A DNA stretch of 14,206 nucleotides, from positions 1 to 14,206 of IMG/VR virus record IMGVR_UViG_2609459844_000009; one strand, written 5' to 3'. The translations under genes were made by a program, and so were the position numbers. The notes under the pieces are model-generated. The model worked only from the letters and a program-made list of their open reading frames with translations. It did not search any database and had not been told where the DNA came from. Position 1 is the stretch's first letter. Every line of letters begins with the position of its first letter. The stretch comes from a virus (taxonomy: Duplodnaviria; Heunggongvirae; Uroviricota; Caudoviricetes). This document shows, piece by piece, positions 1,245 to 9,556 of this stretch.

Positions 1245-3080
1245 ATGTCTTCTAAATTTAGGAATGATATTAATGGGCTAAGGGCTCTAGCGGTCGCAGC
1301 TGTTATTATATATCACTTTAATAGCTCTTATATGTCAAGCGGATTTGCAGGAGTGGATGTTTTTTTTGTTATCTCTGGATACCTGATGACATCCATAATA
1401 GTTAATAAATTCAATGATGGTAATTTCAAGCTTTTTGATTTCTACCTATCCAGAGCAAAAAGAATCATACCATCATTAATAATAGTCTGCTTTGCTCTGT
1501 TGATTTTTGGTTTTTTATTAATAGAACCTGGTACTTATCAGCTAATAGGTAAGCATTCGGCAAGCTCTCTTACATTCATATCAAACTTTACCTATCTATT
1601 TGAATCTGGATATTTCGACCAATCATCCAAAGAAAAGTTTTTGCTGCACACTTGGTCACTATCTGTTGAGTGGCAGTTCTACTTGATTTATCCATTTATA
1701 ATAATATCAATTTCTAAGCTGTTTGGCATAACAAGGCTGCGAGCGGCGCTAGCGTCTCTATCGGTGATTGGATTTATAATTTCTTTAATTATATCAAAAG
1801 AAGATATATCTTTATCTTACTATATGTTTTTTAGCAGAGCATGGGAGATGATAGTAGGTGGAGTTATTTTCTTGCTTCCATCAATAATGACGCAGACAAA
1901 GAGACTGACTTTAGAAATAATAGGGTGCATTGGTATAATATTATCATTTTTTGTTTTTACTGAACAAACGTTATGGCCGGGGACTCCAACTCTAATGCCT
2001 GTAATGTTCACTGCATTGGTTATATATGCTAATAATGAAAAATCAATTCTATCTGCAAGGCCAATTCAATTAATCGGTAAGATATCATATTCTATATACT
2101 TGGTGCATTGGGTAATATTAGTATCATTAAAAAAACTGTATATAGACTTTGGGTTTGCTGCATACCTGATATCAACATTAATGCTATCTTTTGCATTATA
2201 TCACTTTGTTGAAAAAAGGCGTAGCTTTGGGAAAATATGGGTTTATTTGTATGTTTTATGTTTTCTCATTTCGCTGGCCGTCTCCTTGAATGGAGTCAGA
2301 TCGCGAACAAGTGGGTCAGATGATTACAGAATGAGCCTTCAGGAGTTCAGAGACAAGTACGAAGGAAGTGATGGAGTAAAGGATAGCCTCAAACCTATCT
2401 TCTTCAACTCTAACGAAGATGACTTTGAATATATATTAATTGGAAGTAGCCATGCAAAGCACTATTACTCATATATAAAATCAAAAGGTTTGAAAGTGGT
2501 GTCGCTTGCGCTTGATGGGTGTAACTCAACAAAAAACAGGTATACCAACTACCGTCCGGAATCATGCGCCCCTCGCTATGATCAAGTGGTAAAATTCATC
2601 AATGACCATCCTGGCAAAAAGGTAGTTTGGGCTACTTTGTGGACTTGGGTTGGGATCCCTAGAGATAGCTCCAAAAATAATAATGAGAGTACTCTAGATG
2701 TGATAAATGAAGAAGTAACTGCATTTATAGGTGACATTAATAAATCAAATAGTGACATTTATCTTATAGGTGACGTTCCGGGCACTAAGAAACTAACATT
2801 TGAATGCATGGCTAAAAATTCGCTGCCTTTGAATAGATATTTCAATTTGGGCGGATGCAGTGACAAGCAAAAGTATGAGGACGATGGTGTTGATGCAACA
2901 CTATCATCCATAGCTAGAAAATATGATAACGTTCACTTTATAGGGGCTGCAAACTCCTTGTGCTCATCAGGTGAATGCATGTTGATATCTGAAGGTAAAC
3001 CAATTTATACAGATTATGGTCACCTTTCAAAATATGGTGCAAATATAGTCGGAAAGTATATATTCAGTAAAGTTAATTAA
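1245..3080 (+). CDS. O-antigen O-acyltransferase, acyltransferase-3 (AT3) membrane domain fused to C-terminal SGNH domain (OafA/Oac-like)
   Basis: 611-aa ORF. N-terminal AT3 hallmarks (GLRALAVAAVIIYHF with conserved Arg and His; VDVFFVISGY) and many predicted TM helices; C-terminal SGNH-like motifs (ILIGSSHAKHY; DYGHLS near the end). Very AT-rich versus neighbours, no strong SD. Occupies the slot where KplE1 carries gtrABC-like genes and Sf6 carries oac. Confidence 0.85.
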   Translation: MSSKFRNDINGLRALAVAAVIIYHFNSSYMSSGFAGVDVFFVISGYLMTSIIVNKFNDGNFKLFDFYLSRAKRIIPSLIIVCFALLIFGFLLIEPGTYQLIGKHSASSLTFISNFTYLFESGYFDQSSKEKFLLHTWSLSVEWQFYLIYPFIIISISKLFGITRLRAALASLSVIGFIISLIISKEDISLSYYMFFSRAWEMIVGGVIFLLPSIMTQTKRLTLEIIGCIGIILSFFVFTEQTLWPGTPTLMPVMFTALVIYANNEKSILSARPIQLIGKISYSIYLVHWVILVSLKKLYIDFGFAAYLISTLMLSFALYHFVEKRRSFGKIWVYLYVLCFLISLAVSLNGVRSRTSGSDDYRMSLQEFRDKYEGSDGVKDSLKPIFFNSNEDDFEYILIGSSHAKHYYSYIKSKGLKVVSLALDGCNSTKNRYTNYRPESCAPRYDQVVKFINDHPGKKVVWATLWTWVGIPRDSSKNNNESTLDVINEEVTAFIGDINKSNSDIYLIGDVPGTKKLTFECMAKNSLPLNRYFNLGGCSDKQKYEDDGVDATLSSIARKYDNVHFIGAANSLCSSGECMLISEGKPIYTDYGHLSKYGANIVGKYIFSKVN

Positions 3081-3087
3081 ACCAAGA

Positions 3088-3114
3088 CCCCTCAATCCTG
3101 AGGGGCTTTTTTTT
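3088..3114. terminator. Bidirectional rho-independent terminator between convergent acyltransferase and tailspike genes
   Basis: Hairpin CCCCTCA-atcc-TGAGGGG followed by T8 on the + strand; the tailspike stop codon overlaps the T tract on the other strand. Confidence 0.8.
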
Positions 3115-5347
3115 ACGCGGTTAATATCCAGCGCTTATCATAATAATGCATTAATCCTTGTGATGTTATTTTCATATGCACGATTGCTTGAGAAAAAGCG
3201 GCGGCAGCAAAACTTACCCTAAGAAATGTTTGTGAGCCGTTATTGTATTTAGATGTGGTAATGCCGGTTAGGTTTTTACTTCCAGCAATCATATTTGACC
3301 AAACATTACTTGAAGCTAAAGTGGCTTGATCTTTTGCTGATACGCTTACCAATATAACTCCACCGGTCTCACCAGTTCCGCCCAATCCATTCTGATTAAT
3401 TGGCATAATCTTTAACTCTGCTGCGATAAAACCCCCCCCCGTATATGAAGCTTCTTCACCAATCGTTGAAATAAGAATATCAATATTTCTTCCATATGGT
3501 ACCAAAACCGTCGCATCTTCAGTTAATACCTGAGTGTATGTGGCGTTTTTAGCTTGGTGTTTAGCGGAAAGAACCACACCATCAGAACCAGTTCGAAAGC
3601 CGATTCCAGTATGTTCCCCGTAGTATTTACCGTAATAATTTATTCCTCTGACGTCAAATTCTGAAATAGCACTTCCGGTTGTGTTTTTTACGAAAATGAA
3701 CTTATCACCGAAGGTGAAACCTCGGCACTGATATTTATTCGTTGGATCGGCAATGTTTTTAAGAAAGGAAATTCCCTTATAGGCTTTAACGTACCCACTT
3801 TCGAAACGAAAGTTCACAGGACCCTTTTGTTCATTTGCTGGTAATTCAACAAAATGAGTAACCGTGGCTCCGCTAGGGTCCTGAATCCAGCAGGAAATGT
3901 TCTCAACGGTTGCAACTGATTGGCCGTCCTCTTCATTGTAATCTGCAAAATCAAGAGCGTGCGTACCATTTATCCCTTCGATACCCATACCTTTGATAGA
4001 AAGAGAGCGGAATCCATAGAACTTATGAGGTAAAGAACAACCATCTGCAGCAATATTATTTACGGCAACGTACATTAATGGCCCCGGAGCCTTTACAGGT
4101 TCATAGGTTTCTCTATCAATCACAGCCCCCCAAAGATAACCAACACCACATTGCGAAGACCAAATTGCAGAGACATCAGTACTTGTTCCCCATATTGCAA
4201 ATCCGTATGTGCAATCATACATAAAAATATTTTGTATGACGCTGACAAATGGACACGATGGGAGCGCAAATTTATAATGGTAGAAGTCTATATTAGTTAG
4301 CTTCCAGTTCTTTCCGCCACCATACGTGGTGCTAGGACCACTTAGCAAAAGTGGACACCCTGTATATTCAGAGTCAGCGTTTCTGAAACCAATATTTTCA
4401 ATATGTAAATTATGACCCCATGAGGACATGTAAAAACCGCCATTTCCTGACGTATAAATCAAACTCTGCCTCGGGTTATCACCCTTAATATTTAAGGTGA
4501 TGCCTTCCCATCTAAACTGGCTAATGTCAATTTGAGTGTTACCAATATATATAGGCTGGTCTATAAAAATAGGAAGTTTAGTTAGATAAGCTTTATTAAG
4601 TGCTAATCCATCATTTGTTACACCTGTTAAATCGACGCCACCCATGCTTGGCGCTTTTGGGTAAGGCGTTCCCTGAATAGTACTTCCATCAATATAAGGA
4701 GCATCCATCCACGCTCCAAACATACGTGGTGTTACGTACCCCTTACCTTGAAGATCACGTTTCCAGCGTTTACCACCCACAGTGACAATGACCATGCCGT
4801 TATCATCTGCAGAAGTAGAATCTGTGAAATCGGCCACAAACAGACCACCACCAGTATCGCCTGATACTGTCGGCTTCATGCCTGTGGTGTGGAAGTCGAC
4901 GAAAATCTTTTGCTGATCTCGCTCAGGCTCAATTGTCCTTAACATTGCTATATCAGGGCATGTCCCGATGTATTTAAGACCGTCTTCCCCTGATAGAGAT
5001 ACTTTAAGCTGATCAGGATCATATTTAAGAACATTCGGAAAATAGAACTGCTGTGCACCATATGCATCATAAACAGCCATAGAATGGCCTTGCACAGTTA
5101 CGAATTTAGCAATCTGCCCATTATATACCGGATATCCAGCGGCGTTAATGATGATTGGTTGCGAAACAGGAATGTGAGAGCCATCTTCGTTCTCCACATA
5201 AACCTGAATCTGGTTTTCAGGATTTACCGGGTCAGTGTCAATTTTACCGATATAAATTTTGCCATTGGCTACGGCTTTAAAAGAACGAGCCATAGTGAAG
5301 AGTTGCGATGGCATACTCACTACAACATTGGCTGTAATGTCTGTCAT
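3113..5347 (-). CDS. Tailspike protein: P22 gp9-like N-terminal head-binding domain with divergent receptor-binding/enzymatic body
   Basis: 744-aa ORF. First ~110 residues ([11 protein letters not shown] ... [33 protein letters not shown] ... [12 protein letters not shown] ... NVLKYDPDQ) closely match the recalled P22 gp9 head-binding domain; the rest is unrelated to P22 gp9 by eye and Gly/Thr/Asn-rich as expected for a beta-helix. SD GGAG ~9 nt upstream of ATG. Confidence 0.85.
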
Positions 5348-5525: not shown

Positions 5526-6428
5526 TCAGTAGTTATGTACTGAAGGAGGTAATTCTTTATTCTTAAGTCTCATCCATGCGGAAAGATTCGTTGGTCCGTC
5601 TGGCTCATTGATATCAACATCTCGTGAGTGATTGATTAAAACGTCTCTCGCTATATCGATAATACGGGAGAACTCATAACCGCAGTCATGACATCTGCCG
5701 GAATAGTTCGATTGAATTTGTTTCAGCGCCGGATACAGTTCGCGGAATAATGCCTGTGAACGGTTAGCATAATCCCATAGCCATACAAGGCTGTTTGCTT
5801 CTTTTTCAGAAAGCTCGTTGGTTTTCTTCTCTTGTTTGCCGATGAACTCGCCTTCAAGCACTACCCTGTGGATGTACTCTACGGCTTGCGGTATCTGAGA
5901 TGCATCAAGCTCTTCAATACTTTCCACATTGAAACGCTGATGAATCATTGCATAAGCTTCTGGGTACATTAGATGCTTTTTGCTGACCAGCATATTTACA
6001 GCATCACGAAGCGGAGTCCTGTCATCAACAGATGTTTTCTTACGTGCATTTTCTGCCTTTCCCTTTGTCCAGTAGTCATGCAGCACAGTAAAGCATTCTT
6101 CCTGGTACTGAATCAGTTTATCGCGGATGTCAGCACGAACTTTCTCAGGGTTGATGCTGAACAGCCATCCATTTAACTTCTTCAAAGGAAGGCAGAGTAG
6201 CTTACGAAGCTTACCATCAGCGGCAACCATATTCATATGAATACAGTTGAACTTATCTAGTTGTTTCATAAGTTTTTGTTGCTGAGTACCCCAGCTCATT
6301 CCGAGGTTTTCAACGATTGGCTTCATCGCAACATATGCAACTCCGGCAGCCATGGCGGTGATAATCTGCTGACCATTGAAAGGCACGTAAGAGGTGTTCA
6401 CTGCTTCTAAAATTGCTATACTATTCAT
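5526..6428 (-). CDS. ant: Antirepressor Ant (P22 immI-type)
   Basis: Start chosen at the internal ATG ([22 protein letters not shown]...) preceded by GGAGA; 300 aa, the length of P22 Ant. Position (arc ... ant, then tailspike, same strand) matches P22 immI. The ORF-track start at 6458 is a TTG without an SD. Confidence 0.8.
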
Positions 6429-6490
6429 GTTGGTTTTTCTCCAAGGATTTACCGACAACCGAAGCCCTGACTGTTACCGCAGTTGGGGCT

Positions 6491-6760
6491 TCAACGTTTT
6501 TCCACTTCATTTTGAATTTGCTTAAGTAGCATATTTGTCTCGTCAAGCCTCTTGTTAATACGGTCAAGGCTTTCTACTAAATCGTTATGTGCATGTGATA
6601 CTTCGTAATTTGAGACTGATTTCTTTTCCTCTATCGTCTTTGTCAATCGTTCCCCTGATTGATACATATTGATTAACGATGTAAAAATCACGAGCAAGCA
6701 AACTACAATGATTGCGCCAGACAAAAATTGTAAAGAACGATCAAGCAATGACACCTTCAT
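6491..6760 (-). CDS. Small membrane-anchored coiled-coil protein, function unknown (inserted between arc and ant)
   Basis: 89 aa with one N-terminal hydrophobic helix (LQFLSGAIIVVCLLVIFTSLI) then a charged helical region. Start ATG overlaps the arc stop (ATGA) and is preceded by GAGGGG, indicating translational coupling to arc. P22 has no gene at this position as far as I recall. Confidence 0.65.
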   Translation of the reverse strand: MKVSLLDRSLQFLSGAIIVVCLLVIFTSLINMYQSGERLTKTIEEKKSVSNYEVSHAHNDLVESLDRINKRLDETNMLLKQIQNEVEKR

Positions 6761-6909
6761 ACCGTAATCCCCTCTCTCTTCAGACTGTCCAGCAATCGCT
6801 TAATCACTTCCGAGTTAAACGACCGGCATTCTTCTTTGGCCTTTCCTGTAATCGCATCTTTTAGCGACTGAGGCATTCTCACCAAAATTCTGCTAACTTC
6901 TTTTTCCAT
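6757..6909 (-). CDS. arc: Arc-like ribbon-helix-helix repressor
   Basis: 50 aa from the internal ATG (MEKEVSRILVRMPQSLKDAITGKAKEECRSFNSEVIKRLLDSLKREGITV); aligns with recalled P22 Arc (RxPxxLxDxxxxxAxEExRSxNSE ... KxEG). Divergent from mnt. Confidence 0.8.
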   Translation of the reverse strand: MEKEVSRILVRMPQSLKDAITGKAKEECRSFNSEVIKRLLDSLKREGITV

Positions 6910-7018
6910 ATCGCCACCACGTGAGTTATTGTGAATCACAAACATATCACCGTGACTATATCAAGTCAAAATTTTTTTGAATACACTGTGATATCAATGT
7001 GATTATCACGGTGTAAGT
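6910..7018. promoter_or_regulatory. immI divergent promoter/operator region between arc and mnt
   Basis: Contains CACGTG (6917-6922), TGTGAATCACA (6930-6940), ATCACCGTGAC (6946-6956) and its inverted partner ATCACGGTGTA (7005-7015), and the perfect palindrome TGATATCA (6988-6995). The CACCGTG/CACGGTG core resembles the centre of the recalled P22 Mnt operator (CCACGGTGG). Confidence 0.6.
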
Positions 7019-7273
7019 ATGACGAAGGTTAGAGACATAGCCCCATATAGCGTAAGAATGCCAGATAGCCTCAAGCGCGACCTGACCATAAGAGCATCGA
7101 AAAACGGACGCTCATTAAATTCAGAAATAGTTATGATCTTGCAAGCTGCTATTGATGAAGAAAAATCACCAAGATCAATAGAAGGTTTTGCTCAACAAGA
7201 ATCTGAAAAATTTAGGGAGGCTCTTCTTAAGACTCTCAGCAGCATGTACGGAGAAGATAAAAAACCCACCTGA
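7019..7273 (+). CDS. mnt: Mnt-like ribbon-helix-helix repressor
   Basis: 84 aa; N-terminal RMPDSLKRDLTIRASKNGRSLNSEIV matches the recalled P22 Mnt RHH motif (RMPxxxxxxLxxRAxxNGRSxNSE). Divergent from arc. Confidence 0.8.
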   Translation: MTKVRDIAPYSVRMPDSLKRDLTIRASKNGRSLNSEIVMILQAAIDEEKSPRSIEGFAQQESEKFREALLKTLSSMYGEDKKPT

Positions 7274-7285
7274 CGGTGGGTTTTT
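7259..7285. terminator. Bidirectional rho-independent terminator shared by mnt and the convergent 330-aa gene
   Basis: A6 - CCCACC-tgac-GGTGGG - T5; the mnt stop codon lies in the loop and the stop of the minus-strand gene (7287) abuts the T tract. Confidence 0.8.
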
Positions 7286-7286
7286 C

Positions 7287-8279
7287 TTATTCTTTATCTT
7301 TTAAGTCTATGGTTCTTTGCCCAATAACCTTTTCATCTATGTATTTCTCATACTCTTCTCGAGTATCAGAAACCATTGCAATACCAGTAACCTTACCTAT
7401 TTGGGTTCTAAGAGCCTTAACTCCAACCTCTGATAAAAACTGGTGTATTTTATCGTTTTTGCTGCCTTTCTCTTCTTTTGAAGTTTTTGCTAAATTAAAT
7501 ACCTTTCCTTCACTTCTGGCTAATGGGTAATAAATGTGATCTATCGTAAGATATTTAAACGCCCATGGTCGCCCTCTAACTGGTTTGTCTATACCATACA
7601 AACGATACCAATGCTCATAAAGTTCAGGGGTGAACTCTCTTTCATACTCACGAGCCTCTTCAGCAACATATCGCTTATATGCTTGAATTACCTCTTCTTT
7701 TGTTCTGTCATACCCTGCCAAAGCATAAACAAGCCCCTGAATGCCCGCCTTGGCTGATGCATCAATAATGATTCTGGCTTGCTTAGCAATCCCTTCCTGA
7801 CTGGAAAGCAACTTACCTTCAGCTTTAGCATTAGAGATTGCTCGACATAAATCAATTAATATTGTTACATCGTAGCCATGTATTACAGGATTAGCTGGAG
7901 TGTTCGTGCCCGCCTGTTTGTATTGAAAAATAAGAGGATTTTCAAGTTTTGCCCTTAATTCATGCCCAATATACTGAGAAATAGTTTTCCCCTGAATAAA
8001 CTTTGGCAACCTGCTGCCACCTTCGCCAAGACCAATCGCTTCTCCCATGCCTCTCTGGCTAATAACGGCAGTTTTGTTATCATCATTTAACACATAGCAC
8101 TCAACATCAATCCCGAATTCATGCTGGAACGATCCCTTATGCGTGGCAATTAATGGTTTATCCTTCCATCTTGCAGCCGCTGCTTTCTTTGCTATTTCAG
8201 AACGCTGCTCTTTAGTCAGCGACTTTGCGCGAGCGATCCCGCCCTTAGCTTTCCCTTCACTACTTTTCTTTTCTGTCAT
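7287..8279 (-). CDS. Hypothetical protein with Lys/Ala-rich basic N-terminal tail; unknown function, possible DNA-binding regulator or exclusion/defence factor
   Basis: 330-aa ORF (MTEKKSSEGKAKGGIARAKSLTKEQRSEIAKKAAAARWKDK...). AGGTG ~9 nt upstream of ATG; TTGCTT-18 bp-TATAAT sigma70-like promoter on the minus strand (+ strand 8312-8341). AT-rich relative to early genes. I could not assign a family; there is a vague resemblance to phage Bro-N/P63C-type regions that I cannot substantiate. Confidence 0.75.
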   Translation of the reverse strand: MTEKKSSEGKAKGGIARAKSLTKEQRSEIAKKAAAARWKDKPLIATHKGSFQHEFGIDVECYVLNDDNKTAVISQRGMGEAIGLGEGGSRLPKFIQGKTISQYIGHELRAKLENPLIFQYKQAGTNTPANPVIHGYDVTILIDLCRAISNAKAEGKLLSSQEGIAKQARIIIDASAKAGIQGLVYALAGYDRTKEEVIQAYKRYVAEEAREYEREFTPELYEHWYRLYGIDKPVRGRPWAFKYLTIDHIYYPLARSEGKVFNLAKTSKEEKGSKNDKIHQFLSEVGVKALRTQIGKVTGIAMVSDTREEYEKYIDEKVIGQRTIDLKDKE

Positions 8280-8434
8280 AATGCAAGCACCTTGTTGTGA
8301 TATATGCTTGCATTATATACACTGTACACACATACAAGCAAGCATAAAAACAAAACAAAATGCTTGCATTACAACCGCGCTACTCCAACTACACATTATC
8401 ATCTGGTATCCTGCACAAAACTAAGGAGGTTGGT
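8280..8434. promoter_or_regulatory. Divergent promoter region with four copies of the 10-bp palindrome ATGC(AA/TT)GCAT (putative operator array)
   Basis: Sites at 8281-8290 (ATGCAAGCAc), 8304-8313 (ATGCTTGCAT), 8336-8345 (AAGCAAGCAT) and 8360-8369 (ATGCTTGCAT); centre-to-centre spacings ~23, 32 and 24 bp. They overlap the RBS/start, -10 and -35 of the 330-aa gene's predicted promoter. Confidence 0.6.
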
Positions 8435-8764
8435 GTGCTTGAATGGTTTCTGTTGGCTGCATTAGTCGTTTCTGGTTTGGTGTATGAGTATCGAATGCAC
8501 TCTCTAACAAAAAAAATAGGAATTCTAGAAAACGAATATTGTGCTCTCAAATCCTCACTGGAACGTGAGCAAGGGGACTTAAAAATCTCTCTGTCTAGCA
8601 TTGAGCGTTCTATAGAGAGCTTAGAGGATAAGGTTGATCGTATAAAGAATGAGGATATTCATGATATTAAGGACGACATATCCTTCTTAAAATCTTGGTT
8701 GAAAAATGTTGGGAAAATTGCCACATCAACACGAGATAAGCTCAATCCATCCATGGATGACTAA
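8435..8764 (+). CDS. Small membrane-anchored coiled-coil protein, function unknown
   Basis: GTG start 5 nt after a perfect AGGAGG SD (8424-8429); ~109 aa with N-terminal hydrophobic helix (LEWFLLAALVVSGLVY) then a charged heptad-like helical region. AT-rich. The upstream ATG at 8360 lies inside operator site 4 with no SD, so I prefer the GTG. Confidence 0.55.
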   Translation: MLEWFLLAALVVSGLVYEYRMHSLTKKIGILENEYCALKSSLEREQGDLKISLSSIERSIESLEDKVDRIKNEDIHDIKDDISFLKSWLKNVGKIATSTRDKLNPSMDD

Positions 8765-9016
8765 TTACTCCTGTGCCATTCCGCTTAGCGATGCCACAAT
8801 TCCAGCTCTTGCTAAACGCTGGAACTCTTCGTTTCCTAGTGCCTCGCGTATTGCTTTTACGGCGGCCTTATTTGCCATAAATCTGCGTTCCGCCGCCGCT
8901 AATGCACCATCACTTGCCCCAACCTTAACTGCCTTTGTTGCCTCTTGAACAGCCTTTTCAATAGCGTAACGACCGCTTCTAGTTGCGGATAATTTCGCTA
9001 TCGCTCCTTTTGCCAT
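8765..9016 (-). CDS. Ala-rich small ORF, possibly the C-terminal remnant of a larger (late/ejection-type?) gene
   Basis: 83 aa from the first ATG, but the frame stays open upstream to ~9142 with no start codon and no convincing SD, suggesting a 5'-truncated remnant. Its stop codon abuts the stop of the convergent gene at 8764. Confidence 0.3.
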   Translation of the reverse strand: MAKGAIAKLSATRSGRYAIEKAVQEATKAVKVGASDGALAAAERRFMANKAAVKAIREALGNEEFQRLARAGIVASLSGMAQE

Positions 9017-9061
9017 TGCATCAATTGCCCCACCTGCAGCGCCAACGGGCCATACGCGCCA

Positions 9062-9556
9062 GTTATTTCTATTGGGGCAGTATTCTTTGACCCGAATACC
9101 GGAGAAACAGGAGAAGAGTTCTCGGTAAATATCTCGCTTGAGTCATCAATGCGATATCGGGCGCGTCCTGACGCTTCAACGATTTTATGGTGGCTGGAAC
9201 AGAGTGAAGAAGCCAGAAAATCGCTAACCAGCAACACTCAGGAGCTTTCAACGGCTCTTTCATGGTTATCTGAATTCATCATAAAGAACGCTAACCACAA
9301 ATTCGTTCAGGTTTGGGGGAATGGAGCATCATTTGACTGCGTTATTCTCCGCAACAGTTATTCGCTGACAGGGCAGCCAGTTCCGTGGCAGTGGTGGAAT
9401 GACCGCGACGTAAGAACAATCGTCGAACTTGGGAAGGTAATAGGATTCGACCCTAAGCGAGATATGCCATTCAAAGGAACTCGCCACAACGCGCTTGATG
9501 ATGCCATTCACCAAGCCAAATACGTTTCAGCGATCTGGAAAAAGTTAGCTAAATAA
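9062..9556 (+). pseudogene. DnaQ/DEDD-like 3'-5' exonuclease (Rv2179c-like phage exoribonuclease family), 5'-truncated
   Basis: Frame is open from 8903; first ATG at 9149. Translation from ~9062 (VISIGAVFFDPNTGETGEEFSVNI ... WWLEQSEEARKSL ... VQVWGNGASFDCVILRNS ... GTRHNALDDAIHQAKYV) matches this family as I recall it, including the motif III H-x4-D. The expected N-terminal DxE motif (I.D.ET.G) is absent in all three forward frames upstream. Confidence 0.5.

What the first reader, a model, noticed from the sequence alone, without database searches (positions are those of the whole stretch)
7287..8764. AT-rich two-gene module (330-aa basic-tailed protein plus small membrane coiled-coil protein) at the sieA-equivalent slot: candidate undescribed exclusion/defence system
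Between mnt and the late-gene remnant, where P22 carries sieA, sit a 330-aa protein with a Lys/Ala-rich N-terminal tail (7287-8279, minus) and a divergent ~109-aa single-TM coiled-coil protein (8435-8764, plus). The module is AT-rich by hand count on sample 60-nt lines (about 35-42% G+C versus about 48-53% in int and the early genes), suggesting separate acquisition. It has its own terminator, promoter and operator array. I cannot assign either protein to a known defence, toxin-antitoxin or exclusion family. A soluble factor paired with a small membrane protein next to a prophage immunity region is a recurring layout for abortive-infection and exclusion systems (for example lambda RexAB).
Basis: partly seen in the sequence, partly recalled or inferred. 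Interest (0 to 1): 0.8.

Follow-up and report, generated by a model that had tools for sequence, protein, structure and literature searches.

The report
Two independent prophage cargo genes, one self-regulated
The two genes are real, but they are separately inherited prophage cargo cassettes rather than a two-gene defence system, and the larger one (a P63C-family protein of unknown function) carries a strikingly conserved four-box control region that probably lets it switch off its own promoter.

Summary
Both ORFs exist as described: a 330-aa protein (7287-8279, minus) and a 109-aa protein (8435-8764, plus, GTG start). They lie between mnt and a remnant of ejection gene 16 in a decayed P22-like prophage.

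They are not a module. The 330-aa protein belongs to Pfam P63C (PF10546), a large family (1,898 cluster representatives) found in prophages of many Proteobacteria and never with the small gene. The small protein is a homologue of HK620 HkcB. It sits in the P22 sieA position, behind the same 34-bp leader. At least seven different genes, including genuine sieA, follow that leader next to the same P63C allele.

The main new result is cis-regulatory. Four ATGCAAGCAT boxes in alternating orientation embed the P63C promoter and overlap its start codon. The array is conserved in 52-58 of 71 distinct upstream regions, down to 33% protein identity. All 55 exact matches in IMG/VR abut a P63C gene. The array is present exactly when the basic N-terminal motif is present, so I infer negative autoregulation.

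No known defence model matches either protein. P63C genes often lie just downstream of cI (19 of 85 loci), the rexAB/BstA position. A defence role is therefore plausible but untested.

The parts
7260..7285 (.). G+C-rich stem-loop with A and T runs on both sides. Probably a bidirectional terminator shared by mnt (stop codon inside the loop) and the P63C gene.
   Evidence: 11-bp stem, 4-nt loop, T-run; scored on the + strand only. Sequence. Equivalent tMNT terminators are annotated in P22, HK620 and epsilon34.
7287..8279 (-). P63C-family gene (330 aa), full length and intact.
   Evidence: Pfam PF10546, E=1.2e-8, residues 202-289. phrog_2384, 5e-103. 2,766 homologues, 60-70% identical over the full length in Burkholderiales, Azotobacter and Ralstonia. 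1,898 cluster representatives.
8163..8252 (-). Codons 10-39: basic two-helix N-terminal motif GGxARAxxL..R..IA.KAA.ARW. Inferred to be the box-binding module.
   Evidence: AF2 helices 10-20 and 23-39. G13, A30 and R37 are invariant. The motif and the array co-occur in 68 of 68 loci, and both are absent in 5 loci.
7869..8153 (-). Codons 43-137: mixed alpha/beta domain, possibly Bro-N/KilA-N-like (weak evidence).
   Evidence: AF2 secondary structure. About half of the top 50 BFVD Foldseek hits are Bro-N or antirepressor proteins, each at E 0.02-0.5. hhalign comparisons were not significant.
7413..7676 (-). Codons 202-289: the Pfam P63C domain, inside an all-helical C-terminal half.
8281..8290 (-). 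Box 4 (GTGCTTGCAT on the gene strand). It overlaps the Shine-Dalgarno sequence AAGGTG and ends 1 nt before the ATG.
   Evidence: Family consensus aGGgTGCTTGCATG.
8304..8313 (-). Box 3 (ATGCAAGCAT). Its first two bases are the last two of the -10 hexamer TATAAT (8317..8312).
8336..8345 (-). Box 2 (ATGCTTGCTT; a one-mismatch variant). It contains the -35 hexamer TTGCTT (8341..8336). The spacer to the -10 is 18 nt.
   Evidence: In most homologues the -35 is TTGCAT with a 17-18 nt spacer.
8360..8369 (-). Box 1 (ATGCAAGCAT), the upstream end of the P63C cassette.
8370..8404 (+). Junction between the P63C cassette and the sieA-type leader. A possible weak hkcB promoter lies here (-10 TATCAT 8397-8402, no good -35).
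   Evidence: Conserved in all E. coli variants aligned. The promoter is read by eye; the consensus scan found none here. In P22 and HK620 the PsieA promoter lies inside hkcC, which is absent here.
8404..8434 (+). Leader and Shine-Dalgarno sequence (AAGGAGG 8423-8429), shared with P22 sieA and HK620 hkcB.
   Evidence: 34 bp (8404-8437) identical to P22. The same leader precedes seven different genes.
8435..8764 (+). hkcB homologue (109 aa, GTG start): N-terminal membrane anchor (residues 2-19) followed by a long coiled-coil helix. The most conserved part is the C-terminal 45 residues.
   Evidence: 97.5% nt identity to HK620 hkcB; phrog_5962.
8765..9016 (-). Context: C-terminal 83 codons of ejection gene 16. 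The rest of the late region is deleted, so the prophage is defective.
   Evidence: phrog_770, residues 623-666 of 668, E=7e-9. 100% identical to the end of gene 16 in intact relatives.

Best explanation
The interval holds two independent cargo ("moron") cassettes. They occupy two adjacent variable slots between mnt and ejection gene 16 of a defective P22-like prophage.

(1) Bases 7260-8369 form a self-contained P63C-family cassette.
- A sigma-70 promoter is embedded in four 10-bp ATGCAAGCAT boxes in alternating orientation. Box 2 supplies the -35, box 3 abuts the -10, and box 4 covers the Shine-Dalgarno sequence and start codon.
- The 330-aa gene follows, ending at a stem-loop terminator that is probably bidirectional.
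- Shown: the architecture, its conservation, and its exclusive association with P63C genes.
- Inferred: the basic two-helix N-terminus of the protein binds the boxes and represses its own promoter. This would hold the protein at a low, steady level in the lysogen.
- Inferred more weakly: the body of the protein (a possibly Bro-N-like domain plus the helical P63C domain) is a DNA- or protein-binding effector expressed from the prophage. It may act on competing phages in a BstA-like way, or on phage repressors in an antirepressor-like way.

(2) Bases 8404-8764 hold hkcB behind the same leader as P22 sieA.
- Shown: it is one of at least seven alternative genes in this slot, most of them small membrane or secreted proteins, and one of them is genuine sieA.
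- Inferred: HkcB is a single-pass inner-membrane protein with a cytoplasmic coiled coil, made by the prophage, that interferes with superinfection at the cell envelope.
For: Independence of the two genes:
- HkcB occurs with hkcC (HK620), with gp15 (epsilon34) and with a 199-aa protein plus a YafO-like protein (CUS-3).
- The same P63C allele occurs with SieA, HkcB, a 62-aa two-TM protein, a 129-aa signal-peptide protein, a 149-aa one-TM protein, a 75-aa two-TM protein, or a 140-aa soluble protein.
- A 52%-identical P63C allele occurs with identical hkcB.
- This P63C allele is in 3 of 5,426 E. coli genomes, and hkcB is in 117.
- HkcB has 26 homologues, all enterobacterial. P63C has 2,766.

The box array:
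- All four boxes are present in canonical register in 52 of 71 distinct upstream regions, and three or more in 58. Spacings are 22-24, 31-32 and 23-24 bp. This holds across host G+C of 37-65% and down to 33% protein identity.
- The boxes are invariant islands in otherwise unconserved spacer, with no compensatory changes.
- The exact three-box pattern occurs 55 times in IMG/VR, and all 55 abut a P63C gene. My estimate of the chance expectation is below 0.1.
- The N-terminal motif and the array co-occur in 68 of 68 loci. Five loci lack both, and three of those lie directly downstream of cI on the same strand.

Expression in the lysogen:
- A cI-like repressor is the immediate neighbour in 24 of 85 loci. 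In 19 it lies upstream on the same strand. ST104 ORF23 lies between cI and gene 24.
- In a Streptococcus satellite the homologue lies between the XRE repressor and int.

HkcB:
- It shares the sieA slot, strand and leader. Its model is a single helix with a hydrophobic N-terminus.
Against: - There are no experimental data for either protein.
- Neither protein matches a PADLOC defence model.
- Box binding by the P63C protein is inferred from co-occurrence only. The five loci lacking both motif and array represent about three lineages, so the association rests on few independent events.
- The promoter in this window has a weak -35 (3 of 6 matches), and the consensus scan did not report it.
- The Bro-N resemblance is not statistically significant. 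The AF2 model is of moderate quality only (pLDDT 72.6, pTM 0.52).
- This P63C allele is rare in E. coli, and one of its three copies is disrupted by IS5, which argues against strong selection.
- HkcB's membrane segment is of borderline hydrophobicity (Kyte-Doolittle 1.48 over 19 residues), and HkcB has no sequence similarity to SieA.
- One occupant of the sieA slot (the 140-aa protein in strain M15) looks soluble.
Confidence: 0.6

Rival explanations
1. One reading: the 330-aa soluble protein and the small membrane protein form one two-component exclusion or abortive-infection system of the RexAB type.
For: They are adjacent and divergently transcribed from one about 155-bp control region, next to the immI region. 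Box 1 lies about 30 nt upstream of the possible hkcB -10, so some regulatory coupling in this particular arrangement is not excluded.
Against: The two genes assort independently in phages and prophages. The P63C family is about 100-fold larger and taxonomically far wider than HkcB. The array travels with P63C alone.
Confidence: 0.04
2. The P63C protein is a regulator rather than a defence effector. It would be an antirepressor-like or Stl-like DNA-binding protein that cross-talks with other prophages or satellites, for example by inactivating a heterologous repressor, and it happens to be autoregulated.
For: Weak structural resemblance to Bro-N and antirepressor proteins. The Pfam P63C domain was defined among domain-shuffled phage regulators (from my own knowledge of Iyer et al. 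2002; the paper was not available). One representative joins P63C residues 1-122 to a P22 Ant C-terminal domain (P0206). The window gene lies in immI beside ant, arc and mnt. A homologue lies in the lysogeny module of a Streptococcus satellite.
Against: No box sequences occur elsewhere in the window, and there is no excess elsewhere in the other loci, so no regulon is visible. P0206 may be an assembly or gene-calling chimera. The position just downstream of cI fits defence cargo at least as well.
Confidence: 0.25
3. The four boxes are not a protein operator. They would be an RNA element (two hairpins controlling translation) or the ends or target of a mobile or homing cassette.
For: The boxes form two inverted-repeat pairs, and box 4 covers the ribosome-binding site. 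The cassette is found at many genomic positions and is highly conserved across hosts, as selfish elements are.
Against: The conserved -35 and -10 place the inferred start at the end of box 3, so boxes 1-3 would not be transcribed. The predicted 30-nt leader is unstructured (-0.8 kcal/mol, z=+1.1). The bases themselves are invariant, with uncompensated mismatches, which is not what a helix under structural selection shows. All four boxes lie on one side of the gene, so they are not flanking ends. No nuclease motif was found.
Confidence: 0.08
4. HkcB is not an exclusion factor. It would be some other small envelope protein, for example one that modulates lysis, membrane stress or lysogenic conversion, or a dispensable filler kept by linkage to the end of gene 16.
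For: No similarity to SieA. The strongest conservation is in the C-terminal 45 residues, next to the end of gene 16. This could reflect a recombination linker rather than protein function. The family is very narrow.
Against: HkcB alternates with genuine sieA behind the same leader, and most alternatives are small membrane or secreted proteins. It is intact in a prophage that has lost its whole virion module.
Confidence: 0.3

Closest known systems
BstA (Salmonella prophage BTP1) with its aba DNA element (Owen et al. 2021, PMC8585504)
   Same: A single prophage protein of about 300-330 aa with an N-terminal DNA-binding-type domain and a second C-terminal domain. It is found across alpha-, beta- and gamma-proteobacterial prophages, often directly downstream of cI. 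A short repeated DNA element spans the upstream region and the start of the gene.
   Different: No sequence relationship: the PADLOC BstA model scores BstA at 1.9e-124 and gives nothing for P63C, and hhalign is not significant. The P63C boxes lie upstream of, and overlap, the promoter, so they look like a classical autoregulatory operator. Whether they give self-immunity as aba does is untested. In this window the gene lies in immI, not downstream of cI.
P22 SieA (Leavitt et al., PMC10461980)
   Same: HkcB occupies the same slot, strand and 34-bp leader between gene 16 and mnt, and it alternates with genuine sieA in otherwise identical flanks. Both are predicted membrane proteins.
   Different: No sequence similarity. 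HkcB is 109 aa with one predicted membrane segment and a coiled coil. SieA is 164 aa and its sequence shows several hydrophobic stretches. The FnRYPnEAnnFNK motif of SieA is absent from the HkcB sequence. Its function is untested.
Bro-N / KilA-N / Ant-type domain-shuffled phage regulators
   Same: A two-part architecture of an N-terminal alpha/beta domain followed by a helical C-terminal domain. The beta-hairpin-helix pattern VECYVLNDDNKTAVISQRGMGEAIGL resembles the start of Bro-N and KilA-N domains. There are many weak Foldseek hits to Bro-N proteins.
   Different: No significant sequence or profile match. The extra N-terminal basic motif and the dedicated four-box array are not features of those families.
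Lambda RexAB
   Same: Prophage-expressed cargo next to an immunity region. P63C genes often occupy the same cI-N slot in other phages.
   Different: RexA and RexB are an obligate, co-inherited pair. P63C and HkcB are not co-inherited.
Autoregulated single-gene cassettes with operators overlapping -35 and -10 (antitoxin- or C-protein-type control)
   Same: Inverted-repeat boxes over the promoter of the gene that encodes the presumed binding protein. This design suits tight dosage control.
   Different: There is no partner toxin or enzyme gene under the same control. The binding module is a short N-terminal extension fused to the effector itself.

Membership tests
Pfam P63C (PF10546) / PHROG 2384 | Match to the family profile above the curated cut-off | tested here: met
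   35.9 bits against a 26.1 cut-off, residues 202-289. phrog_2384, E=5e-103 over residues 6-328. RefSeq names close relatives 'P63C domain-containing protein'.
HK620 HkcB / PHROG 5962 | Full-length similarity to HK620 hkcB and the same genomic position (convergent with gene 16) | tested here: met
   98% amino-acid and 97.5% nucleotide identity to HK620 hkcB. phrog_5962, 2.8e-61. Position confirmed.
P22 SieA superinfection-exclusion family | Sequence similarity to SieA types A, B or C, including the FnRYPnEAnnFNK motif | tested here: not met
   BLASTP of HkcB against P22 SieA gave no alignment at E<=100. The motif described in PMC10461980 is absent from the HkcB sequence.
P22 SieA superinfection-exclusion family | Location between genes 16 and 9, with its own promoter and leader, in a P22-like prophage | tested here: met
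   Same slot and strand, and a 34-bp identical leader.
P22 SieA superinfection-exclusion family | Blocks DNA injection by P22-like phages | not testable with these tools
   Needs plating and DNA-entry assays.
BstA abortive-infection family | Match to the BstA profile / KilA-N-like N-terminal domain | tested here: not met
   The PADLOC BstA model gave no hit for P63C, while the positive control BTP1 BstA scored 1.9e-124. hhalign probability 0.5%.
BstA abortive-infection family | Gene directly downstream of the prophage repressor | tested here: inconclusive
   Not so in this window (immI). True for 19 of 85 P63C loci and for ST104 ORF23.
BstA abortive-infection family | A cognate DNA element at the 5' end of the gene that suppresses the protein's activity (aba) | not testable with these tools
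   A conserved four-box DNA array exists at the 5' end. Its function needs experiments.
RexAB-like two-gene exclusion system | The two genes are co-inherited as a pair | tested here: not met
Known anti-phage defence systems (PADLOC-DB 2.0) | Any protein-model match | tested here: not met
   No hit for P63C. The only HkcB hit is a 15.6-bit coiled-coil match to DpdH.
Bro-N / KilA-N DNA-binding domain | Significant profile or fold match of residues about 43-137 | tested here: inconclusive

The most novel reading that the evidence does not exclude
The P63C cassette is a widespread single-gene prophage defence that works like BstA. The protein would be kept low by binding its own four-box array in the lysogen. 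It would act on the replicating DNA or proteins of an infecting phage. It would be titrated or neutralised by the multiplying box arrays when its own prophage replicates, so that one DNA element serves as both operator and 'self' signal. HkcB would be a separate, new type of SieA-like injection blocker in the neighbouring slot.
Probability: 0.2. Interest if true: 0.8.

Novelty: new variant of a known kind. Interest (0 to 1): 0.5.

Why it matters
P63C-domain proteins are a large family: about 1,900 clusters at 50% identity. About 13% of complete E. coli genomes match some part of this locus (mostly its shared control region and hkcB), and I found no functional study of the family.

Three results turn an anonymous 'hypothetical protein' into a set of bench experiments (binding assays, reporter fusions, phage challenge):
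- The gene travels as a self-contained unit with an almost invariant four-box operator and promoter.
- The array is tied one-to-one to a short N-terminal motif.
- Variants without the array sit in the cI operon.

The work also maps two adjacent cargo hotspots at the gene 16-mnt junction of P22-like phages. One uses a shared leader in front of at least seven alternative small envelope proteins, including SieA. That is a compact place to look for new superinfection-exclusion factors. Finally, it removes a false lead: the two genes are not a RexAB-like pair.

Tried and rejected
- PADLOC, NCBIfam and Pfam on both proteins gave only the P63C hit. The coiled-coil hits for HkcB (DpdH, SMC-like, Rad50) were discarded as compositional.
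- A profile search of PDB sequences gave only a spurious summed-repeat match to designed Kelch proteins.
- hhalign of the family profile against a Bro-N protein, the window's Ant and BstA was not significant in any case.
- I looked for a PD-(D/E)xK reading of D247...E257-x-K259 and rejected it. The region is helical in the model, and E257 is not conserved.
- The sigma-54 and LexA-box readings of the repeat were rejected by eye, because the spacing and bases do not fit.
- Odd fusions among remote representatives (ABC_tran+P63C, Nramp+P63C, RelB) were treated as probable metagenomic gene-call chimeras.
- Counting the box motif over the whole window is not significant on its own (3 found against 1.7 expected). 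The evidence lies in the clustering and the cross-genome conservation.
- Literature searches for 'P63C', 'P63C domain' and 'hkcB' returned nothing functional. The Iyer et al. 2002 paper was not held.
- Base composition as evidence of joint acquisition was rejected.
Full report
**Setting**

The window is a decayed P22-like prophage. In order it holds:
- int (1-1155);
- a low-G+C ORF that looks like an acyltransferase (1245-3080);
- tailspike (3113-5347, minus) and ant (5526-6458, minus);
- an 89-aa ORF, then arc (6757-6945, minus) and mnt (7019-7273, plus);
- the two genes of the finding;
- the last 83 codons of ejection gene 16 (8765-9016, minus);
- early genes, xis, and a chromosomal permease gene.

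This rests. The whole virion module is missing. sar RNA is present at 6429-6496.

**The observation**

Both ORFs are present at the stated coordinates. The small gene starts at GTG 8435, as in HK620 and RefSeq. The N-terminal 40 residues of the large protein hold 12 K/R and 8 A.

The small protein has a hydrophobic N-terminus (Kyte-Doolittle 1.48 over 19 residues, which is borderline). It is modelled as one continuous helix, residues 2-103, at pLDDT 87.

A stem-loop with A and T runs on both sides (7260-7285) separates mnt from the large gene. It is probably a bidirectional terminator, although the scan scored it on the + strand only. The intergenic region contains a repeat array.

The AT-richness is modest. 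The pair is 39.6% G+C, against 42.7% for the window. Its immI neighbours are similar at 40.8-43.4%. Composition therefore says nothing about joint acquisition.

**Identity of the two proteins**

The 330-aa protein is a member of Pfam P63C (PF10546, above the curated cut-off) and of phrog_2384 (5e-103). The family is large: 2,766 homologues at E<=1e-5, and 1,898 representatives of 50%-identity clusters. Full-length relatives in Burkholderiales, Azotobacter, Ralstonia and Laribacter are still 60-70% identical.

The 109-aa protein is a homologue of HK620 HkcB (98% amino-acid identity; phrog_5962). It has only 26 homologues, all enterobacterial.

Neither protein matches any PADLOC model. The BstA model used as a positive control scores BTP1 BstA at 1.9e-124. 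I found no functional literature on either family.

**Are they a module? No.**

- HkcB occurs without P63C. It is found next to hkcC in HK620, next to gp15 in epsilon34, and next to a 199-aa protein plus a YafO-like protein in CUS-3. SEN22 also carries HkcB, but I did not examine its neighbour.
- Only vB_EcoP-611R6 and some E. coli prophages combine HkcB with a P63C gene, and then with alleles only 52% identical to this one.
- The same roughly 100%-identical P63C allele is followed, behind the same leader, by seven different genes:
  - genuine SieA (92% identical to P22 SieA);
  - HkcB;
  - a 62-aa two-TM protein;
  - a 129-aa protein with a signal peptide;
  - a 149-aa one-TM protein;
  - a 75-aa two-TM protein;
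  - a 140-aa soluble protein in strain M15.
- In 5,426 complete E. coli genomes this P63C allele occurs 3 times (once with hkcB, once with the 140-aa gene, once disrupted by IS5). hkcB occurs 117 times.

The region therefore contains two adjacent cargo slots:
- Slot A lies next to gene 16. It holds sieA, hkcB or others, all behind the shared leader GGTATCCTGC.CAAAACTAAGGAGGTTGGTG.
- Slot B lies between that leader and the mnt terminator. It holds P63C, hkcC, gp15, a YafO-like gene and others.

**The P63C cassette and its box array**

Read on the gene strand, the window has these elements:

| Element | Sequence | Position |
|---|---|---|
| Box 1 | ATGCAAGCAT | 8369..8360 |
| Box 2 | ATGCTTGCTT | 8345..8336 |
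| Box 3 | ATGCAAGCAT | 8313..8304 |
| Box 4 | GTGCTTGCAT | 8290..8281 |
| Start codon | ATG | 8279 |

The same four boxes turned up upstream of the Azotobacter, Ralstonia and Burkholderia homologues, in the same order, in the same alternating orientation, and at -85, -61, -30 and -7 from the ATG.

I then fetched 80 IMG/VR loci and surveyed 71 distinct upstream regions.
- 52 have all four boxes (at most one mismatch each) in canonical register, and 58 have at least three.
- Most of the rest are start-codon misassignments by my script or rearranged variants.
- Box spacings are 22-24, 31-32 and 23-24 bp.
- Box 2 contains the -35 hexamer (TTGCAT).
- A TAnnAT -10 hexamer shares its last two bases with box 3, with a 17-18 nt spacer.
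- Box 4 overlaps the Shine-Dalgarno sequence and usually the start codon itself (consensus aGGgTGCTTGCATG).

This holds across host G+C of 37-65% and down to 33% protein identity. It includes ST104 ORF23, where the array points to a start downstream of the annotated one. In the alignment the boxes are near-invariant islands in otherwise random spacer.

A scan of all IMG/VR for the exact three-box pattern gave 55 stretches. Every one abuts the 5' end of a P63C-family gene (13 of them needed strand conversion by hand). By my estimate chance would give fewer than 0.1 matches.

**Who binds the boxes?**

The only conserved trans factor linked to the array is the P63C protein itself. Its N-terminal motif GGxARAxxL..R..IA.KAA.AR(W/H), modelled as two helices at residues 10-39, is present in all 68 loci that have the array. 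It is absent from the 5 loci that lack the array. Those five represent about three lineages, so the association rests on few independent events.

Three of those five lie directly downstream of a cI-like repressor on the same strand. There they can be transcribed with cI and need no promoter of their own.

In E. coli, alleles that are only 52% identical overall share identical first 35 codons, the array and the leader.

I therefore infer that the N-terminal module binds the boxes and represses the promoter. This is inference, not demonstration.

An RNA-hairpin reading is unlikely, for three reasons:
- The inferred transcription start lies at the end of box 3.
- The remaining 30-nt leader is unstructured.
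- Box mismatches are not compensated.

**What does the rest of the protein do?**

The AF2 model (pLDDT 72.6) shows a mixed alpha/beta domain (residues 43-137) and a helical C-terminal half that contains the Pfam domain. I found no solved relative, by sequence or by fold.

Against viral models, the best hits are an unnamed protein (4.7e-6) and Mx8 p63 (1e-3). After these, roughly half of the top 50 are Bro-N or antirepressor proteins, each at a non-significant E-value. Profile comparisons with a Bro-N protein, P22-type Ant and BstA are not significant. The Bro-N likeness is a lead, not a result.

**Genomic position as evidence**

P63C cassettes sit at many positions, with no conserved partner:
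- next to a ParE/Phd pair and an endonuclease;
- next to an Mrr-type nuclease;
- after a tape-measure gene;
- among early recombination genes.

Among 150 distinct flanking ORFs from 85 loci, the commonest neighbour by far is a cI-type repressor (Peptidase_S24 in 21, HTH_3 in 19). A cI-like gene is the immediate neighbour in 24 of 85 loci. In 19 of these it lies upstream on the same strand.

That is the rexAB/BstA slot. The BstA paper stresses the same location, and describes a DNA element spanning the 5' end of bstA (PMC8585504). ST104-type Salmonella phages carry their P63C gene between cI and gene 24. A Streptococcus satellite carries one between its XRE repressor and int.

Taken together, this points to expression in the lysogenic state. 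It makes a defence or exclusion role plausible, and an antirepressor-like regulatory role is the main alternative.

**HkcB**

HkcB lies where P22 has sieA, on the same strand and behind the same leader. It alternates with genuine sieA and with other small envelope proteins.

[quoted passage not shown] It is present in only 22 of 66 P22-like phages (PMC10461980). HkcB has no sequence similarity to SieA and a different predicted shape.

By the positive-inside rule (my inference), its coiled coil would face the cytoplasm. An exclusion function is a reasonable guess from position, and nothing more.

**Verdict**

The two-gene system is not supported.

The most valuable result is the P63C cassette: a family-wide, almost invariant four-box promoter and operator tied to an N-terminal motif. 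It has not been described in anything I could search, and it is directly testable.

Function is still unknown for both proteins. I put the chance that P63C is a defence or exclusion effector at about one in three, and the same for HkcB.

Noticed in passing
window 6491-6760 (minus): An 89-aa ORF between arc and ant with a strong N-terminal membrane segment (Kyte-Doolittle 2.79) and a coiled-coil tail (phrog_27312, 6.5e-61). It is a second small membrane/coiled-coil protein in immI. P22 and epsilon34 have no gene at this position. Its 3' end overlaps sar RNA by a few bases (6429-6496, Rfam 93.6 bits).
   Followed up: partly
L001 3136-3501 (HK620 hkcC) and L004 about 2135-2501 (P22): HK620 hkcC (121 aa) contains an HExxH motif (AHECAHM). 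A nearly identical ORF is present but unannotated in the P22-pbi record, and the annotated PsieA promoter lies inside it. It has no Pfam, PADLOC or NCBIfam hit.
   Followed up: partly
L016-L023, L027, L014 (the slot behind the leader AACTAAGGAGG): One conserved leader and Shine-Dalgarno sequence drives at least seven unrelated genes in different P22-like prophages: SieA, HkcB, a 62-aa two-TM protein, a 75-aa two-TM protein, a 149-aa one-TM protein, a 129-aa signal-peptide protein and a 140-aa soluble protein. This is a compact hotspot of candidate exclusion factors.
   Followed up: partly
L010 1972-2975 (CUS-3); L003 7441-7977 and L014 3441-3977 (E. coli MS 21-1 and M15): Other cargo lies between mnt and the sieA slot. 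CUS-3 has a 199-aa protein plus a YafO-toxin-like protein (PF13957, 3.2e-11). MS 21-1 and M15 have a gene annotated as a ClpP-like protease subunit directly after mnt.
   Followed up: no
window 8765-9556: This is the deletion junction of the defective prophage. Only the last 83 codons of gene 16 remain. The next ORF (9149-9556) matches only positions 47-177 of the Rv2179c-like exoribonuclease profile, so it may be truncated at its 5' end.
   Followed up: no
L012 3417-4496 (ST104 ORF23): The annotated start of this P63C homologue is probably too far upstream. The conserved four-box array points to a start codon further downstream, which would give a protein of the usual ~330-aa length.
   Followed up: partly
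P0206 (277 aa): This representative joins P63C residues 1-122 (60% identity) to a P22 antirepressor C-terminal domain (PF10548, 5.5e-30). It is either a real domain-shuffled protein or an assembly chimera of neighbouring immI genes.
   Followed up: no
window 1245-3080 (plus): A 611-aa ORF at 35% G+C between int and tailspike. It is the most AT-rich gene in the window. By eye it looks like an O-antigen acyltransferase-type membrane protein, but I did not run it against any library.
   Followed up: no
NZ_CM142774.1 (E. coli GPEC1405), hit H27: One of the only three E. coli copies of this P63C allele is split by an IS5 insertion.
   Followed up: no
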